DNA of 64,000 bases from Salmonella phage vB_SenS-3. The position numbers and the translations under genes were made by a program. The DNA is taken from the sequence record OR896822.1. The stretch is one strand, 5' to 3'. Below, piece after piece: positions 22,739 to 48,999 of the stretch. The notes under the pieces were generated by a model. It did not search any database. It was not told where the DNA came from and worked only from the letters and a program-made list of their open reading frames with translations. Every line of letters begins with the position of its first letter. Within the stretch, counting starts at the first letter, position 1.

Positions 22739-22860
22739 TCACTTTTAACTTTACAAAACTTTACATCAGATGCCAGGTAAACTTTTTGTTATGCACTATG
22801 CTTAACTCGTAATATGCGTGTTACATGTGTTTAACAATCAACTCTCAGGAGTGTTTACTA

Positions 22861-23189
22861 TGTCTGACAGGACTCTTTTACCGACCAACATGGGCGGGCT
22901 CGGTGGTGACGGTGTTATGCCTGGTATCGCTGCTTTTAGTGGTGCGCTGATTGATTCCTGGTTAGGTAATGGTGCGGGTGGTCGTGGTGTTGGTGCGGGT
23001 GGTGTGGATGGCGCGGTTTCCGTTGCTAGTACTGCTGCAAACATGCTGACTACTTCACTGGTAAGCGATATCGAATCCATTCAGAGCGGACTGAACAATC
23101 TGGGCCTAACTGTTGTACAGGGTCAGGGTACAACCAATCTGGCAATCGCTAACACAGGCGCAATGAACCTGAACGCTATTACCCAATAG
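22861..23189 (+). CDS. glycine-rich hypothetical protein (moron-like); in-frame TAG at 23187-23189 followed by a 65-codon open extension
   Basis: ATG at 22861 with AGGAG RBS 8 nt upstream; GC-rich Gly/Ala-rich ORF (GGLGGDGV...GNGAGGRGVGAGGVDG); frame stays open after the TAG to TGA at 23385-23387. Confidence 0.45.
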
Positions 23190-40194: not shown

Positions 40195-40503
40195 CTAGGC
40201 ATTCTTGGCTTTGAGTTCTTCAGCTCGTTTCTGTACTTCATGCAAGACCTCGGATTCACTGAGGATTTGCGTAAAAGCGTAGAATAGCTGTGACGTAGTT
40301 TCTAGGGTATAAGGAAAAGAGAAGCCGGATTTCGTTGGAAACCACTCTCCAGTAATATCTTGGAGCCAGTAACGAATTCCCATGTATAGATTCCCACGAA
40401 ATTCAGATACGGTTAGTCTTACTTGTTCTCCCTCCTTCTCCCAAAGCATGATGGACTGGTCGTCAACGTGTCCTTCATAGTTTTGATTTACCTGATCGCT
40501 CAT
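40195..40503 (-). CDS. small protein, possibly PC4-like ssDNA-binding fold
   Basis: 102 aa; segment VRLTVSEFRGNLYMGIRYW resembles the PC4/YdbC-type motif (vs...EFkGk.yidiReyw); from memory, unverified. Confidence 0.4.
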   Translation of the reverse strand: MSDQVNQNYEGHVDDQSIMLWEKEGEQVRLTVSEFRGNLYMGIRYWLQDITGEWFPTKSGFSFPYTLETTSQLFYAFTQILSESEVLHEVQKRAEELKAKNA

Positions 40504-41297: not shown

Positions 41298-41404
41298 ATT
41301 TTTCGATTTCCTTAATTAAGAATTAAACAGAATAGTTCTTTCAAACTATGAGAATATTATATCAATAATTACAGGATTAAGCAACTGAAATTTTTCAGTA
41401 ACTG

Positions 41405-41650
41405 CTACACATCTAGTTCAACGATCTCCCAATCGTCAGCCAGGGCTTCGTCTAGGGAGAGTTCTACCTCTTGCTTATACGCTCGCTTTACATCCTCAGC
41501 CGTATCGTTAGGTAATGGCACAAACCTTTTAACAGTATCGGCATCAACGTTAAACTCGAAAAGCATAGTAAATGTTTTACTATTTTCCCAGCAATCTCGC
41601 TGGAGATATTTTACGTCTCCAGCTTTTAACAGATCAGTTAGTTTACTCAC
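41405..41650 (-). CDS. hypothetical protein
   Basis: 81-aa acidic ORF overlapping upstream gene stop by 8 nt. Confidence 0.35.
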   Translation of the reverse strand: MSKLTDLLKAGDVKYLQRDCWENSKTFTMLFEFNVDADTVKRFVPLPNDTAEDVKRAYKQEVELSLDEALADDWEIVELDV

Positions 41651-42347
41651 GGCGTTTTCCTTTCTCTTTATCGAGTTTTAGGGCAGCTTTAACAGCTTCA
41701 TTAACCAACGTGATAACTTCTTCACGACTCCATTTAAAGCCCAGAGCCTTAACATCAACTCCCAGCTTTTCCAGATGTTTAACAGAGGCTAATTCGTAGT
41801 GCATATAGTGAACGTTCTGTTGTTTACCTTCTGATAACAACCAAACACGATAGCAACCAACTGGATTAGTCATTGCTTTCTTGATTTCACCAATACACTG
41901 ATAGCCAGGAACCCAAACAAGTTCACCAACTTCAAATTCTTCTGCCATCGCATCATCAGGAATCAGCGGTGGATTCAATGGATCAACAATATCGTTTAAA
42001 CGAAGCAAAGCACCATAACGTTCCAGAACAGATTTAATCATCGCTACAGAACGATAATTACGATCTGCGATTTCTTCAAAAGAATCACCAGAAAGATACT
42101 GTTCAATTACGTTTGCAAGCTCAACACCTTCAATCAGTGTTCCACGCTTCTTCTTTTTCATTTCCGCAACCTGAACCTGACGATCTCTCCATTCTTCAAT
42201 CATTCGTTCCATAGTTGGGTTAGAAGAAACACCGAGCATTTCACATGCTGCTTTCTTAGTACCACCATTCTCTAGATGTTCAATAACCTTTTTAAAGGTT
42301 TCATCAGGGATTTCATGGATAAGTTTCTTTCTACGAGAACCAGCCAT
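41643..42347 (-). CDS. putative HTH DNA-binding protein
   Basis: 234 aa; HTH-like segment GTKKAACEMLGVSSNPTMERMIEEW; driven by a promoter near-identical to the classical T5 PN25 promoter; GAGGAG RBS. Confidence 0.45.
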   Translation of the reverse strand: MAGSRRKKLIHEIPDETFKKVIEHLENGGTKKAACEMLGVSSNPTMERMIEEWRDRQVQVAEMKKKKRGTLIEGVELANVIEQYLSGDSFEEIADRNYRSVAMIKSVLERYGALLRLNDIVDPLNPPLIPDDAMAEEFEVGELVWVPGYQCIGEIKKAMTNPVGCYRVWLLSEGKQQNVHYMHYELASVKHLEKLGVDVKALGFKWSREEVITLVNEAVKAALKLDKEKGKRRE

Positions 42348-42378
42348 ATTTAAACTCCTCTCTCAAATTTATGAATCT

Positions 42379-42407
42379 ATTATACAGAAAAATTTTCCTG
42401 AAAGCAA
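42379..42407 (-). promoter_or_regulatory. T5 PN25-like strong early promoter
   Basis: Minus strand TTGCTTTCAGGAAAATTTTTCTGTATAATAGATTCATAAATTTGAGAG, matching the PN25 promoter as I recall it. Confidence 0.7.
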
Positions 42408-42415
42408 ATAAATTT

Positions 42416-42874
42416 TTAAGCTGGATATAGCTCGGCTTTGAAAGCAGCTCTAACTTCTATGGCCTCTTCTAACGAATTGCATTGTTGGTACTTACGAGTA
42501 TTTCCTTTTTGCATAAGTACACAGTATTTTTCACCGCGCATATAGATATTAGATTCTCCTAACTTATTGTCCTTTCTCACATCTATATTATGCATTTGAT
42601 CAGATCTATTGGAATCTTCTAGATTCTCTATGAAATTACAATCCTTAATTCTGTTATTATGGTCTATCTCTTCAGGAATATATCCTTTATGATACAGAAA
42701 GACTAACTGATGTTCTCCCCATTTCTTGCCTTTGAAACCAATCCTGATATACCCTTTGTGCTTCCCACCCGCAAACTGCCCTATTAACCTCTTTTGGTTA
42801 GTTTTCCTCCATTTGAGGTGGCCAGTTTCTGAATCATATTCAAAGGCTTCTCTAACCTCTTCTTGAGTTATCAT
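42416..42874 (-). CDS. HNH homing endonuclease (paralog of 29766..30296)
   Basis: 152 aa; N-terminus MITQEEVREAFEYDSETGHLKW and HQLVFLYHKGYIPEEIDHNNRIKDCN align with the other HNH. Confidence 0.7.
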   Translation of the reverse strand: MITQEEVREAFEYDSETGHLKWRKTNQKRLIGQFAGGKHKGYIRIGFKGKKWGEHQLVFLYHKGYIPEEIDHNNRIKDCNFIENLEDSNRSDQMHNIDVRKDNKLGESNIYMRGEKYCVLMQKGNTRKYQQCNSLEEAIEVRAAFKAELYPA

Positions 42875-43103
42875 CTTCTTTAATTAATTCTCCTAATTCC
42901 TTATAAACACGTTCTAACTCAAAAGGGATACGTAAGGATATTCGTACCTTACGTTGTTTTAACAGCCATATAGATACGTTCGGAATACCAGCCAATCTGG
43001 GAGGGACCACTCGGCATAGTTTCTCCGCAGTATCGTAAACAGAAGTTTTCCGTTCTTTTACTGAAAACTTCCTTGTTTCCCACTTTTTATTCTTCGCTGT
43101 CAT
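42852..43103 (-). CDS. small hypothetical protein
   Basis: ATG at 43103 (MTAKNKKWETRKF...) overlapping the 3' end of the upstream gene; weak RBS. Confidence 0.2.
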   Translation of the reverse strand: MTAKNKKWETRKFSVKERKTSVYDTAEKLCRVVPPRLAGIPNVSIWLLKQRKVRISLRIPFELERVYKELGELIKEDDNSRRG

Positions 43104-46401: not shown

Positions 46402-46440
46402 GTAAAATTTTTCCGAAGGTGCTATCAGTGTCCTTGAGCA

Positions 46441-46468
46441 CAGAGAAAACCGAGTCAAAATGACTCGG
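46441..46468 (-). terminator. rho-independent terminator (minus strand)
   Basis: Minus strand hairpin CCGAGTC-atttt-GACTCGG followed by TTTTCTCTG. Confidence 0.6.
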
Positions 46469-46492
46469 TAATCAGGATTGAGCTAATGAAAA

Positions 46493-46816
46493 TCAATCAT
46501 CATTTAGGCCTGGGACATAGATTCCAATGCGATTTAATTGACCTTTAGCTTCTTCGAGAATATCTTCGGTGTACTCCCAAATATCATCTTCTACTTGCAA
46601 AAGATAAGGGGATTCACCAGTTTCGGGCTCACGTGTAATGGCTAAGCCACGTGGATGGAATATAGAGAAGTTGAGGGCAACAATCAAGCCCATGCTGGAC
46701 AATTCATTCCAGTCAGCTTCCCAGCCATCATCTTCATCTTCGTCCACAAATACACCTACACTAGGGTCTGTTACAGAAGTAAACGGAAATGTTACACTAA
46801 CCTTGTCAACCCCCAA
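46493..46816 (-). CDS. hypothetical protein, paralog of 46898..47326; N-terminus interrupted by in-frame TAG (possible pseudogene)
   Basis: C-terminal 70 aa align with the neighbour (DWNELSSMGLIVALN...GIYVPGL vs DWKELDEMGLVFALN...GYMIPGL); an in-frame ATG at 46888 with TAAGGAGG RBS gives MEQVFWRQIDPSLV, then TAG at 46844-46846. Confidence 0.4.
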   Translation of the reverse strand: MGVDKVSVTFPFTSVTDPSVGVFVDEDEDDGWEADWNELSSMGLIVALNFSIFHPRGLAITREPETGESPYLLQVEDDIWEYTEDILEEAKGQLNRIGIYVPGLNDD

Positions 46817-46897
46817 CCAACGTGCAAGGAGCCCCTCAGCACGCTATACCAAACTAGGATCTATCTGACGCCAAAATACTTGTTCCATTCTGCCTCC

Positions 46898-47326
46898 TTA
46901 AGCAGTTAAACCTGGGATCATATACCCGAAACGACGAAGTTTCTGAATCCCCTCATTTACTTCCTCGGGCGAATATGACCAGCCCTCACGTTCATTTACC
47001 TGGAAAGCAGGAGCTTCACCAGTGCGATAGTTTACAATAAGACGGTGATTTGCAGGCATAAACAGCTTATGGTTCAAGGCAAAAACCAGACCCATTTCAT
47101 CGAGTTCTTTCCAGTCTACAATTTCTTCTACTCCCCCACCTAAATCCACGCTAACTCCAATACACGGAGCTTCCTCTAGTGGGCCTTTAAAAGACAGGAA
47201 GATATCGTTATTCTCACACCAAATCTTAAGCAGATTGATGGTTTCATTGTACATACCATTAGGGAGAGAACGCCAGAAGTTGAGGAGCATAGGATTTACC
47301 TCTTTCATGAAAATATTATTGAACAT
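46898..47326 (-). CDS. hypothetical protein (paralog pair member A)
   Basis: 142-aa ORF; start 2 nt after upstream stop; homologous to the downstream ORF. Confidence 0.5.
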   Translation of the reverse strand: MFNNIFMKEVNPMLLNFWRSLPNGMYNETINLLKIWCENNDIFLSFKGPLEEAPCIGVSVDLGGGVEEIVDWKELDEMGLVFALNHKLFMPANHRLIVNYRTGEAPAFQVNEREGWSYSPEEVNEGIQKLRRFGYMIPGLTA

Positions 47327-47328
47327 GC

Positions 47329-47868
47329 TTATACCTTAAGTTTCTGAAGAGCCTTACACATTTCAAGATCTGGACTAAATTCCAGCATATAGCTTATAGC
47401 ATTTAAATCTTGAAGGTTTATTCCAGTCCTGCCATTTACAATAACAGTAGGAAATTGGTACATCATAGCACCAGCATCATCTAGGACGCACCAATGCTTG
47501 AGCTTATGTTTTTCTACGAAACGTAAGACAGAATTACCTCGAGATAAACCACCTCCAGTAAAATCTGTTGTACCAAGAAAACGATCGATCAAACCGAGTC
47601 CGGTCATAATCTGAACGTTCTCCATTTCATTTCGTACAGAAAACCATGAAGATACCCCAACAATCATTATTGGGGATGGCTTAAGAAAGTTCTGAAAAGC
47701 CTGGAGTAATGGCTTGTAAACCCAATCACCACCAAAGAATAGCTTTTCACTATCTGGAGCATGATGGTGAGAGATGCTCGAATTGAGCACCCCATCAATA
47801 TCCGGGAAAATCACAGGAGTATTACTTATTTCCACCAGTAGCATCCCACGTCCAGACTTTAACTTCAT
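47329..47868 (-). CDS. HAD-superfamily phosphatase, 5'(3')-deoxyribonucleotidase-like
   Basis: Motif I FPDIDGVLN (DxDGxL) near N-terminus as in NT5C-type nucleotidases; true start may be the internal Met (MLLVEIS). Confidence 0.5.
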   Translation of the reverse strand: MKLKSGRGMLLVEISNTPVIFPDIDGVLNSSISHHHAPDSEKLFFGGDWVYKPLLQAFQNFLKPSPIMIVGVSSWFSVRNEMENVQIMTGLGLIDRFLGTTDFTGGGLSRGNSVLRFVEKHKLKHWCVLDDAGAMMYQFPTVIVNGRTGINLQDLNAISYMLEFSPDLEMCKALQKLKV

Positions 47869-48007: not shown

Positions 48008-48170
48008 ATTCTCCCTCCTTAATAAGGAACTCTTTCCATTCTGCTGTATCCTCATAGATAACGCAGAAATCATCACTCTTCCATGAGAAGTCATCAGTAG
48101 CAAATTCGAAACGGTAGCACCAACTACCGTCTGGCCATACTAAAAGATCACACATGCTTTTCTGGGACAT
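47988..48170 (-). CDS. small acidic protein (60 aa)
   Basis: ATG at 48170 with GGAGGG RBS; acidic C-terminus EGEYGEEDF. Confidence 0.3.
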   Translation of the reverse strand: MSQKSMCDLLVWPDGSWCYRFEFATDDFSWKSDDFCVIYEDTAEWKEFLIKEGEYGEEDF

Positions 48171-48999
48171 AAATATTTCCCTCCATAAAAGCTTCAACTT
48201 GATCAATAAAGTGTTTATTACCAAAAACTTCGGCAGCTCCAGCACGCCATACAGTAACACCACGTTTCTCATATTCAAGCTGTTCATCATAGCGAACTTG
48301 AGGGTTAACAACCATCATCTTAGTTCCACGACATACAGCAGGGAATAGTTCCCAGTTGAAGTCAATCACTTGGTTGCTACAACCTACTACAATAACCATA
48401 TCATTGCTAGTAAGTGTATCAAACAGGTTAATCTGACCCATATACCACGGAGCCGTCTCACCAAAGAATGTTACGTTTGGTTTTACCCATTCGTAATCTT
48501 CAGGAACAATTGCAGTGTATCCAACATCTTCGATGATTTGATTGCGACCCCGACGATAGATCACCTCTTTCAAGTACCCGTGAGCGTGAATGATTTCATC
48601 ACGAGGGATACCAGCACGTTCCAGAAGGTCATCAACGTTAGTAGTGAAGTTCTTCACGCTATCCGCACCATAACGCTGGAACCATTCTGCAATTCGCAGA
48701 TGGGCAATGTTAGGCTCAACAGTCTGTAATTCCTGACGACGCATGTTGTAGAACTCATGAGTCTTGAGATACAGATCGTTACCCTCTTCATCAATGCCAG
48801 GGAAACGAGCACTGAAGTAGTTAGGATCATCTTCACCACAGAAGCGACGGAAGCCAGCTTCAAAGTTAGGCAAGCTACATACTTCCTCTAGATCGTACTC
48901 ATCCCACAAAGATTTTCCACTAGCAGTATCAGTACGGAAAGCACGAACACCACTATCAACACTTAAACCAGCACCACTAACAATGATTAGTCTACGCAT
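48148..48999 (-). CDS. Sir2-family (sirtuin-like) NAD-dependent protein
   Basis: 283 aa; N-terminal Rossmann motif IIVSGAGLSVDSGVRAFR (cf. GAGIS..SGIP.FR); His-containing IIHAHGYL; C-terminal VVNPQ; no obvious zinc ribbon. Confidence 0.65.
   Translation of the reverse strand: MRRLIIVSGAGLSVDSGVRAFRTDTASGKSLWDEYDLEEVCSLPNFEAGFRRFCGEDDPNYFSARFPGIDEEGNDLYLKTHEFYNMRRQELQTVEPNIAHLRIAEWFQRYGADSVKNFTTNVDDLLERAGIPRDEIIHAHGYLKEVIYRRGRNQIIEDVGYTAIVPEDYEWVKPNVTFFGETAPWYMGQINLFDTLTSNDMVIVVGCSNQVIDFNWELFPAVCRGTKMMVVNPQVRYDEQLEYEKRGVTVWRAGAAEVFGNKHFIDQVEAFMEGNIYVPEKHV

What the first reader, a model, noticed from the sequence alone, without database searches (positions are those of the whole stretch)
46493..47326. 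Tandem paralogous genes; downstream copy has a premature in-frame amber codon after 14 codons
ORFs 46898..47326 and 46493..46816 (minus strand) are clearly homologous over their C-terminal 70 residues. The downstream copy has a strong TAAGGAGG RBS and an ATG at 46888 that opens an in-frame reading MEQVFWRQIDPSLV (aligning to MLLNFWRSLPNGMY of copy A), then hits TAG at 46844-46846, after which the same frame continues into the conserved body. The ORF-track start for this copy is a TTG with no convincing RBS. This fits a duplicated accessory gene with one copy decaying by a nonsense mutation, or expressed only under amber suppression.
Basis: seen in the sequence. Interest (0 to 1): 0.55.

Follow-up and report, generated by a model that had tools for sequence, protein, structure and literature searches.

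The report
Private amber mutation in T5-like gene
One gene of an old, conserved pair of related early genes in a T5-like Salmonella phage carries a single-base change that creates a stop codon at codon 15; the change is found in no other public sequence searched and is most likely an ordinary strain-specific knockout of a dispensable gene.

Summary
On the minus strand, 47326..46898 (copy A, 142 aa) and 46888..46493 (copy B, 131 codons) are tandem paralogs (31% identity over 124 aa, no gaps, E 3e-19). Copy B opens at a TAAGGAGG-ATG and hits an in-frame TAG at 46846-46844.

The stop is one G-to-T change of a Glu codon (GAG in the closest relative, phage PMBT36). All 37 sampled orthologs, including T5 gene T5p105, have an intact 129-145 aa ORF from the same ATG. 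A 55-nt probe with GAG hits 203 phage records; the TAG version hits none. A 30-mer of the TAG version is also absent from IMG/VR, JGI metagenomes and GTDB genomes.

Both genes are conserved across T5-like phages, so this is not slow decay of a duplicate. There is no sign of amber suppression:
- The window has no tRNA genes.
- PMBT36's 28 tRNAs include no CUA anticodon.
- TAG ends other real genes in the window.

Each protein is two DUF7415 (PF24187) units of unknown function. The stop removes the first unit; a weak restart could still yield the second. Copy B is the last gene before a terminator, so no polar effect is expected. I read it as an ordinary private nonsense allele; a consensus base error is the main rival. 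Low interest.

The parts
46898..47326 (-). Copy A: intact 142-aa gene, ortholog of T5 T5p104, made of two DUF7415 units (residues about 15-62 and 69-112).
   Evidence: The ORF is listed. Pfam DUF7415 scores 123.7 bits with two stretches, and each half matches on its own. Nine orthologs align at 72-100% identity. The N-terminal MFNN..NP extension is conserved, with an in-frame 3-aa deletion in Yersinia phage phiR2-01. The protein is 100% identical to PMBT36 over the 130 aa annotated there.
46893..46900 (-). TAAGGAGG: Shine-Dalgarno site of copy B. Its TAA is copy A's stop codon, an arrangement that suggests translational coupling.
   Evidence: Read directly from the sequence. The site is conserved as (C/T)TAAGG(A/G)GGCA.A just upstream of the ATG in nearly all of the 37 orthologous loci.
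46493..46888 (-). Copy B: full ancestral reading frame of 131 codons plus TGA, ortholog of T5 T5p105, two DUF7415 units, interrupted at codon 15.
   Evidence: Sequence and ortholog alignment. All 37 orthologs have intact 129-145 aa ORFs from this ATG. The read-through protein covers phrog_2502 positions 4-134 of 134.
46844..46846 (-). Premature amber codon TAG at codon 15. It is GAG (Glu) in PMBT36, so the change is G-to-T on the coding strand at 46846.
   Evidence: Pairwise DNA alignment and the SNP list. The 55-nt TAG probe hits 0 of 50,697 phage records, while the GAG probe hits 203. The 30-mer is absent from IMG/VR, JGI metagenomes and GTDB genomes. Codon 15 in orthologs is AAG/AAA 26 times, GAG/GAA 9, AAT 1 and AGA 1.
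46847..46888 (-). The 14-codon remnant MEQVFWRQIDPSLV. It is the only product expected from the strong start site.
   Evidence: Sequence. In the AlphaFold2 model it corresponds to strand 2-4 and the start of helix 11-25.
46493..46816 (-). Possible restart ORF from TTG (codon 25), 107 aa. It keeps only the C-terminal DUF7415 unit.
   Evidence: The ORF is listed. The TTG begins 27 nt after the last base of the TAG, and the only Shine-Dalgarno-like motif (GAGGGG) is 15 nt upstream. Pfam finds a single DUF7415 stretch, residues 35-75. This exact product is not on record in the public gene collection. Whether it is translated is inferred, not shown.
46745..46747 (-). In-frame GTG (codon 48) with AGGTG five bases upstream. 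It is a second candidate internal start and would give an 84-aa product holding the C-terminal unit.
   Evidence: Read from the sequence. This is inference only.
46439..46469 (-). Intrinsic-terminator-like hairpin with a T run, about 25 nt after copy B's stop. It makes copy B the last gene of its transcription unit.
   Evidence: The terminator scan finds a 9-pair stem with 5 G-C pairs followed by TTTCTCTGTG. T5 has an annotated promoter for the next gene (D2) just downstream of the equivalent position.

Best explanation
The window comes from a T5-like Salmonella phage of the Epseptimavirus type. It is about 99.9% identical to phage PMBT36 over the first 41 kb.

At 46493-47326 (minus strand) lies the conserved tandem pair orthologous to T5 genes T5p104 and T5p105. 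Each protein consists of two DUF7415 units, so four units sit in a row. In this genome alone, a G-to-T transversion turned Glu15 (GAG) of the downstream gene into an amber stop.

Ribosomes loading at the strong, probably coupled, TAAGGAGG-ATG site should terminate after 14 codons, so the normal 131-aa protein is not made. At most, weak reinitiation at TTG 46816 or GTG 46747 gives a small amount of a protein that lacks strand 1 and helix 1 and keeps only the second DUF7415 unit.

The gene is the last one before a terminator, so nothing downstream should be affected. The phage tolerates the loss because this early gene is accessory, and the paralog next door is intact.

Shown: the stop, that it is private to this genome, that the gene and its N-terminus are conserved, and that no suppressor tRNA is visible. 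Inferred: that the base call is correct, that the gene is dispensable, and whether any restart product is made.
For: - The difference from PMBT36 is a single base, GAG to TAG.
- The TAG allele is absent from 50,697 phage records, while the GAG allele is in 203. It is also absent from IMG/VR, JGI metagenomes and GTDB genomes.
- All 37 orthologs are intact from the same ATG and ribosome-binding site, and the N-terminal 24 codons have pN/pS 0.24.
- Of 54 PMBT36 coding sequences compared with the window, only this one has a stop and none has a frameshift, so the assembly looks clean.
- The window differs from PMBT36 by 130 substitutions in about 50 kb, so real private differences are plentiful.
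- Other disrupted alleles exist in public assemblies. Copy B has a +1 G frameshift at codons 25-26 in one contig. Copy A has an in-frame 68-aa deletion in 7 contigs from several samples. This supports dispensability.
- A terminator follows directly after copy B.
- A confident structure model (pLDDT 92) places codon 15 inside helix 11-25 of the first unit.
- Most relatives in the 1.84-billion-protein representative library are single-unit proteins matching only residues about 57-110, so a C-terminal unit alone can be a viable protein.
Against: - No reads are available, so a consensus base error cannot be excluded.
- The gene is conserved under purifying selection in every other genome sampled, so a knockout probably carries some cost.
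- Dispensability is inferred from a few broken alleles in other assemblies, one of which lies in a G homopolymer and could itself be an error.
- The function of DUF7415 is unknown, so the consequence of the loss cannot be stated.
Confidence: 0.77

Rival explanations
1. The T is a sequencing, consensus or assembly error, or a minority variant that was fixed in the consensus. The real phage would then have GAG and an intact gene.
For: - The allele is unique among all collections searched.
- It hits a gene that is intact and selectively constrained in all 37 orthologs.
- An error is not filtered by selection, so a lone nonsense change in a conserved gene is enriched for errors compared with other differences.
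Against: - The rest of the window shows no frameshift or stop in 53 other coding sequences, which argues for a high-quality consensus.
- Substitution errors in a consensus are far rarer than the roughly 130 real substitutions that separate this genome from its nearest relative.
- The site is not in a homopolymer.
Confidence: 0.13
2. The gene is still expressed at full length by decoding the amber codon. Possible routes are a suppressor host used for propagation (supE, supF or supD type), a phage-encoded suppressor tRNA outside the window, or near-cognate readthrough helped by the weak UAG-C context and phage tRNA-Gln(CUG).
For: - Codon 15 is a variable, charged helix position (E, K, N or R in orthologs), so almost any inserted residue would probably be tolerated.
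- The base after the stop is C, which from general knowledge of E. coli termination is a weak context.
- The closest relative encodes tRNA-Gln(CUG), near-cognate to UAG.
- This genome's own tRNA cluster lies outside the window and could not be read.
Against: - The window has no tRNA genes.
- None of the 28 tRNAs in PMBT36 has a CUA anticodon.
- TAG ends other genuine genes in the window, for example 22860-23189 (+) and 40198-40503 (-), which match PMBT36 coding sequences.
- No ortholog has a stop here.
- The RNA around the site folds no better than shuffled sequence, z -0.24.
- Basal readthrough would give on the order of 1% of normal protein or less (general knowledge).
Confidence: 0.05
3. 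Long-term pseudogenisation: copy B is a redundant duplicate in the process of being lost from this phage lineage.
For: - A paralog sits next door.
- Broken or deleted alleles of both copies occur sporadically elsewhere.
Against: - The duplication predates the split of Tequintavirus and Epseptimavirus, and both copies are retained and constrained in all 37 genomes sampled.
- The paralogs are only 31% identical, so they are unlikely to be redundant.
- Apart from the stop, this allele differs from PMBT36 by only two synonymous changes, with no accumulated damage.
Confidence: 0.04

Closest known systems
Bacteriophage T5 early genes T5p104 and T5p105 (AY692264), lying between the HAD-like gene T5p103 and the origin-binding or helicase gene D2
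   Same: Order and orientation match: SIR2, two small ORFs, HAD-like gene, copy A, copy B, terminator or promoter, D2. Identity to T5 is 76% for copy A and 69% for copy B. The ribosome-binding site and ATG of copy B are the same.
   Different: T5 and all other sampled relatives have a sense codon (Lys or Glu, rarely Asn or Arg) at position 15. This genome has TAG.
Pfam PF24187 (DUF7415) / PHROG 2502, function unknown
   Same: Both proteins match above the curated cut-off, and each half matches separately. BFVD fold matches are to other DUF7415 phage proteins.
Classical amber (nonsense) alleles of non-essential phage genes, with occasional downstream translational restart
   Same: A single-base change creates UAG early in a gene, and an in-frame TTG and GTG lie downstream. 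The comparison with known restart cases rests on general knowledge.
   Different: There is no evidence that the allele was selected or made in the laboratory, and none that a restart product is made.
Programmed stop-codon readthrough or suppressor-tRNA recoding in phages
   Same: Only the presence of an in-frame TAG within a coding frame.
   Different: The stop is not conserved, no suppressor tRNA was found, no stimulatory RNA structure is predicted, and TAG is used as a normal terminator elsewhere.

Membership tests
DUF7415 (Pfam PF24187) | Match to the family HMM above the gathering score of 27 bits | tested here: met
   Copy A scores 123.7 bits and copy B read through the stop 96.4 bits. 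The separate halves score 44.6, 56.1, 71.4 and 56.5 bits.
PHROG 2502 (two-unit T5-like form) | Full-length match to the 134-position profile | tested here: met
   Copy A residues 11-142 match profile positions 2-134 (E 5e-59). Copy B residues 1-130 match positions 4-134 (E 4e-58).
Orthologs of T5 T5p104/T5p105 | Conserved position between the HAD-like gene and the D2 or origin-binding gene, with collinear protein alignment | tested here: met
   Annotated regions of T5, PMBT36, GSW6, STG2, phiLLS, HildyBeyeler, phiR2-01 and UTK0009; protein alignments.
Programmed readthrough or amber-suppressed gene | The in-frame stop codon is conserved among relatives | tested here: not met
   None of 37 orthologs has a stop. 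The TAG probe hits 0 records against 203 for the GAG probe. The allele is absent from three further collections.
Programmed readthrough or amber-suppressed gene | A suppressor tRNA (anticodon CUA) is available from the phage | tested here: inconclusive
   The window has none, and the closest relative's complete tRNA cluster has none. This genome's own tRNA cluster lies outside the window.
Programmed readthrough or amber-suppressed gene | TAG is avoided as a terminator elsewhere, or a stimulatory RNA structure lies 3' of the stop | tested here: not met
   TAG ends 7 of 75 long ORFs, including ORFs that match PMBT36 coding sequences. The local fold has z -0.24.
Decaying pseudogene | Several disabling lesions or relaxed constraint (excess non-synonymous change) | tested here: not met
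   There is one nonsense change and two synonymous differences from PMBT36, and the gene is constrained in relatives.
Laboratory amber mutant | Provenance from mutagenesis and selection on a suppressor host | not testable with these tools
   The origin of the window is unknown.

The most novel reading that the evidence does not exclude
The amber allele may not be a null. Two routes are not excluded:
- Low-level full-length protein from near-cognate decoding of the weak UAG-C stop, helped by the phage's own abundant tRNAs such as tRNA-Gln(CUG).
- An internal start (TTG 46816, or GTG 46747 behind AGGTG) that produces a single-unit DUF7415 protein like the stand-alone 70-110 aa members that dominate the family.

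Either way, the mutation would convert a two-unit protein into a working one-unit form instead of destroying it.
Probability: 0.06. Interest if true: 0.35.

Novelty: already known. Interest (0 to 1): 0.15.

Why it matters
The practical value is small. The result tells an annotator to mark this locus as a disrupted ortholog of T5p105, not as a 107-aa gene starting at TTG. It also flags one base (46846) worth checking against the reads.

If the allele is real, it is a free natural knockout of one member of the DUF7415 pair. Comparing this phage with PMBT36-like relatives could give a first phenotype for a widespread phage domain of unknown function. Elsewhere that domain is fused to nucleotide-metabolism and exonuclease domains.

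Tried and rejected
- **Source lookup.** I looked up the exact 107-aa TTG product in the public gene-position collection to find the source genome or other carriers; it is not on record.
- **Literature.** Searches for DUF7415, T5p104/T5p105 and T5.104/T5.105 returned nothing. A broader search on T5 early and non-essential genes found nothing about these genes.
- **Internal repeat.** hhalign of the N-terminal half against the C-terminal half of copy B did not detect a repeat (probability 2.6%). The two-unit reading therefore rests on Pfam matching each half separately and on the repeated strand-helix-strand-strand pattern in the model.
- **Phage SE11.** BFVD lists a 74-aa copy-B-like protein in Salmonella phage SE11. 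I tried to locate the record by guessing an accession; MK770411 turned out to be phage SE13, and I gave up.
- **Recoding signal.** I rejected a programmed recoding signal because the local RNA fold is no better than shuffled sequence.
- **Polar effect.** I rejected a polar effect on downstream genes because a terminator follows copy B.

Full report
**1. What is in the sequence**

- Copy A runs 47326..46898 on the minus strand and encodes 142 aa.
- Its stop codon TAA is the first three bases of TAAGGAGG (46900..46893). Four bases later, ATG 46888 opens copy B.
- Copy B reads MEQVFWRQIDPSLV, then TAG at 46846..46844. The same frame continues RAEGLLARWLGVDKV... to TGA at 46495..46493.
- The mechanical ORF list therefore shows only a 107-aa ORF starting at TTG 46816. 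The nearest Shine-Dalgarno-like motif (GAGGGG) is 15 nt upstream of that TTG.
- BLASTP of copy A against copy B read through the stop gives 31% identity over 124 residues with no gaps, E 3e-19. The alignment crosses the stop.

**2. Where the window comes from**

- The 1-kb region matches 417 phage records, nearly all T5-like phages of Salmonella and Escherichia. The closest hits are 99.6% identical.
- Window position 1 is the start codon of the large terminase, as in Salmonella phage PMBT36. The two genomes are 99.87% identical over the first 41 kb and differ by 130 substitutions in about 50 kb.
- In T5 (AY692264) the two genes are T5p104 and T5p105. They lie after SIR2, two small ORFs and a HAD-like gene, and before a promoter and the D2 origin-binding or helicase gene. 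The window has the same order.

**3. The stop is one private base change**

- PMBT36 has GAG (Glu) where the window has TAG. The flanking 140 bases are otherwise identical.
- PMBT36 annotates the gene as a 131-aa coding sequence from the same ATG.
- I used 55-nt probes centred on the variable base, so that every 28-base megablast seed must contain it. The TAG probe hits none of 50,697 phage records; the GAG probe hits 203.
- This probe design only detects close relatives. The more divergent Tequintavirus-type records were checked by sampling instead.
- A 30-mer carrying the TAG is also absent from IMG/VR, JGI metagenomes and one genome per GTDB species.
- In 37 orthologous loci (9 from GenBank phages, 28 from IMG/VR), copy B is always an intact ORF of 129-145 aa. 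It starts at the same ATG behind an AAGGAGG-type site.
- Codon 15 in those loci is AAG or AAA 26 times, GAG or GAA 9 times, AAT once and AGA once. It is never a stop.

**4. The N-terminus is coding and constrained in relatives**

- The first 24 residues are among the best-conserved parts of the protein.
- Across 18 distinct N-terminal DNA sequences, pooled pS is 0.30 and pN is 0.07, a ratio of 0.24. Several codons vary only synonymously.
- 'Decay of a duplicate' is not supported either. Both copies are retained and conserved in Tequintavirus, Epseptimavirus and the Yersinia phage phiR2-01.
- Apart from the stop, this allele differs from PMBT36 by only two synonymous changes.

**5. Real mutation or error?**

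- I translated 54 PMBT36 coding sequences and compared them with the window by tblastn. All are collinear and full length, with no frameshift. Copy B is the only one with a stop.
- The assembly therefore looks clean, and the site is not in a homopolymer.
- Real substitutions relative to the nearest relative (130 in 50 kb) should far outnumber consensus errors.
- On the other hand, a lone nonsense change in a constrained gene is where errors become relatively enriched.
- I put a real mutation at roughly 0.8 and an error at roughly 0.13. Only the reads can settle it.

**6. Suppression or recoding**

- ARAGORN finds no tRNA gene in the window. The T5-type tRNA cluster lies beyond 64 kb.
- In PMBT36 the cluster holds 28 predicted tRNAs, none with a CUA anticodon.
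- TAG terminates 7 of 75 long ORFs in the window. Two of them match PMBT36 coding sequences over their full length.
- The RNA around the stop folds no better than shuffled sequence, z -0.24.
- Nothing therefore points to programmed readthrough.
- Two possibilities remain open: an amber-suppressing propagation host, and low-level near-cognate readthrough. The stop is followed by C, which from general knowledge is a weak context, and position 15 tolerates E, K, N and R.

**7. What the proteins are**

- Both proteins match Pfam DUF7415 (PF24187) and cover the whole of phrog_2502, function unknown.
- Each half of each protein matches DUF7415 on its own, above the curated cut-off. The locus is therefore four DUF7415 units in a row, two per gene.
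- hhalign of the two halves of copy B did not confirm the repeat. That reading rests on Pfam and on the model.
- An AlphaFold2 model of the full-length form is confident (pLDDT 92, pTM 0.86).
  - First half: strand 2-4, helix 11-25, strands 29-33 and 45-49.
  - Second half: strand 56-58, helices 60-65 and 68-80, strands 82-84 and 96-98, helix 108-120.
  - Codon 15 lies in the first helix.
- A profile search of 1.84 billion representative proteins finds 165 relatives. Most match only residues about 57-110, either as small single-unit proteins or as fusions.
- The fusions checked carry thymidylate kinase, dATP/dGTP pyrophosphohydrolase (PF04447) or an Rv2179c-like 3'-5' exoribonuclease domain.
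- This hints at a role in nucleotide or nucleic-acid metabolism, in keeping with the gene's place among T5 early genes. It is no more than association.

**8. Likely consequence**

- Translation from the strong site should stop after 14 codons.
- A restart at TTG 46816 would give 107 aa. The TTG begins 27 nt after the last base of the TAG and has no well-placed Shine-Dalgarno site.
- A restart at GTG 46747, which has AGGTG five bases upstream, would give 84 aa.
- Either product would retain only the second DUF7415 unit. Natural single-unit members show that such a protein can be viable. Whether either start is used here is inference.
- A terminator-like hairpin at 46469..46449 follows copy B directly, so no downstream gene should suffer polarity.

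**9. Is the gene dispensable?**

Other public assemblies carry broken alleles:
- A T5-like contig from run SRR9988199 has one extra G in the G5 run at codons 25-26 of copy B. This splits the gene into 40-aa and 66-aa pieces.
- A 74-aa copy A with an in-frame deletion of 68 residues occurs on 7 contigs from several samples.
- BFVD also lists a 74-aa copy-B-like protein in phage SE11, which I could not trace.

These alleles suggest that each gene can be lost without killing the phage. The homopolymer case could itself be an error.

**10. Verdict**

- The feature is real in the sequence and correctly described.
- It is best explained as a strain-private nonsense mutation, or less likely a base error, in the T5p105 ortholog of a T5-like Salmonella phage.
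- It is not a decaying duplicate, and there is no evidence for suppression-dependent expression.
- It is ordinary and scores low. Its modest use is as an annotation correction and as a possible natural knockout for studying DUF7415.

Noticed in passing
L010 3712-3785 (PMBT36 record positions about 65711-65784; outside the window): ARAGORN predicts a tRNA with anticodon TCA, labelled 'tRNA-SeC', which would read the opal codon. It is not annotated in the GenBank record and lies between a homing-endonuclease gene and a hypothetical gene.
   Followed up: no
window 41400-43000: This stretch is mosaic relative to PMBT36. Window 41456-41577 and 42419-42947 do not align, the block between them is only 96.2% identical, and the small gene at 41408-41650 (-) is only 55% identical at protein level. 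The window is about 460 bp longer here.
   Followed up: partly
window 47329-47868 (-): The gene just upstream of copy A is a HAD_SAK_2 domain protein (PF18143, E 4e-17). Several RefSeq relatives label it 'Sir2 (NAD-dependent deacetylase)', apparently through phrog_18062. The true SIR2 gene is 48148-48999 (-).
   Followed up: partly
orthologs of window 46493-46888 in other records (for example STG2 NC_048089, HMD-7, vB_Sen-E22, ESCO40): Copy B orthologs are annotated as 'tail tube protein', 'tail protein' or 'exonuclease' in several GenBank and RefSeq records. Nothing found here supports those names; the protein is an early-region DUF7415 protein.
   Followed up: partly
L040 1501-1894; L041 1501-1725, L042 19-243, L043 224-448: Other disrupted alleles of the pair exist. 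Copy B has a +1 G frameshift in a G5 run in a Logan contig. Copy A has an in-frame 68-residue deletion (74 aa) on 7 contigs from Logan and ENA metagenomes.
   Followed up: yes
proteins P0077, P0111, P0115, P0170: Elsewhere DUF7415 is fused to thymidylate kinase, dATP/dGTP pyrophosphohydrolase (PF04447) and an Rv2179c-like 3'-5' exoribonuclease domain. This hints at a link to nucleotide or nucleic-acid metabolism for this uncharacterised domain.
   Followed up: partly
window 47290 versus 47326 (-): PMBT36 annotates copy A from the second ATG, giving 130 aa. The 12-residue extension from ATG 47326 is conserved in T5 and other relatives and carries an in-frame 3-aa deletion in phiR2-01, so the longer form is probably correct.
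   Followed up: yes
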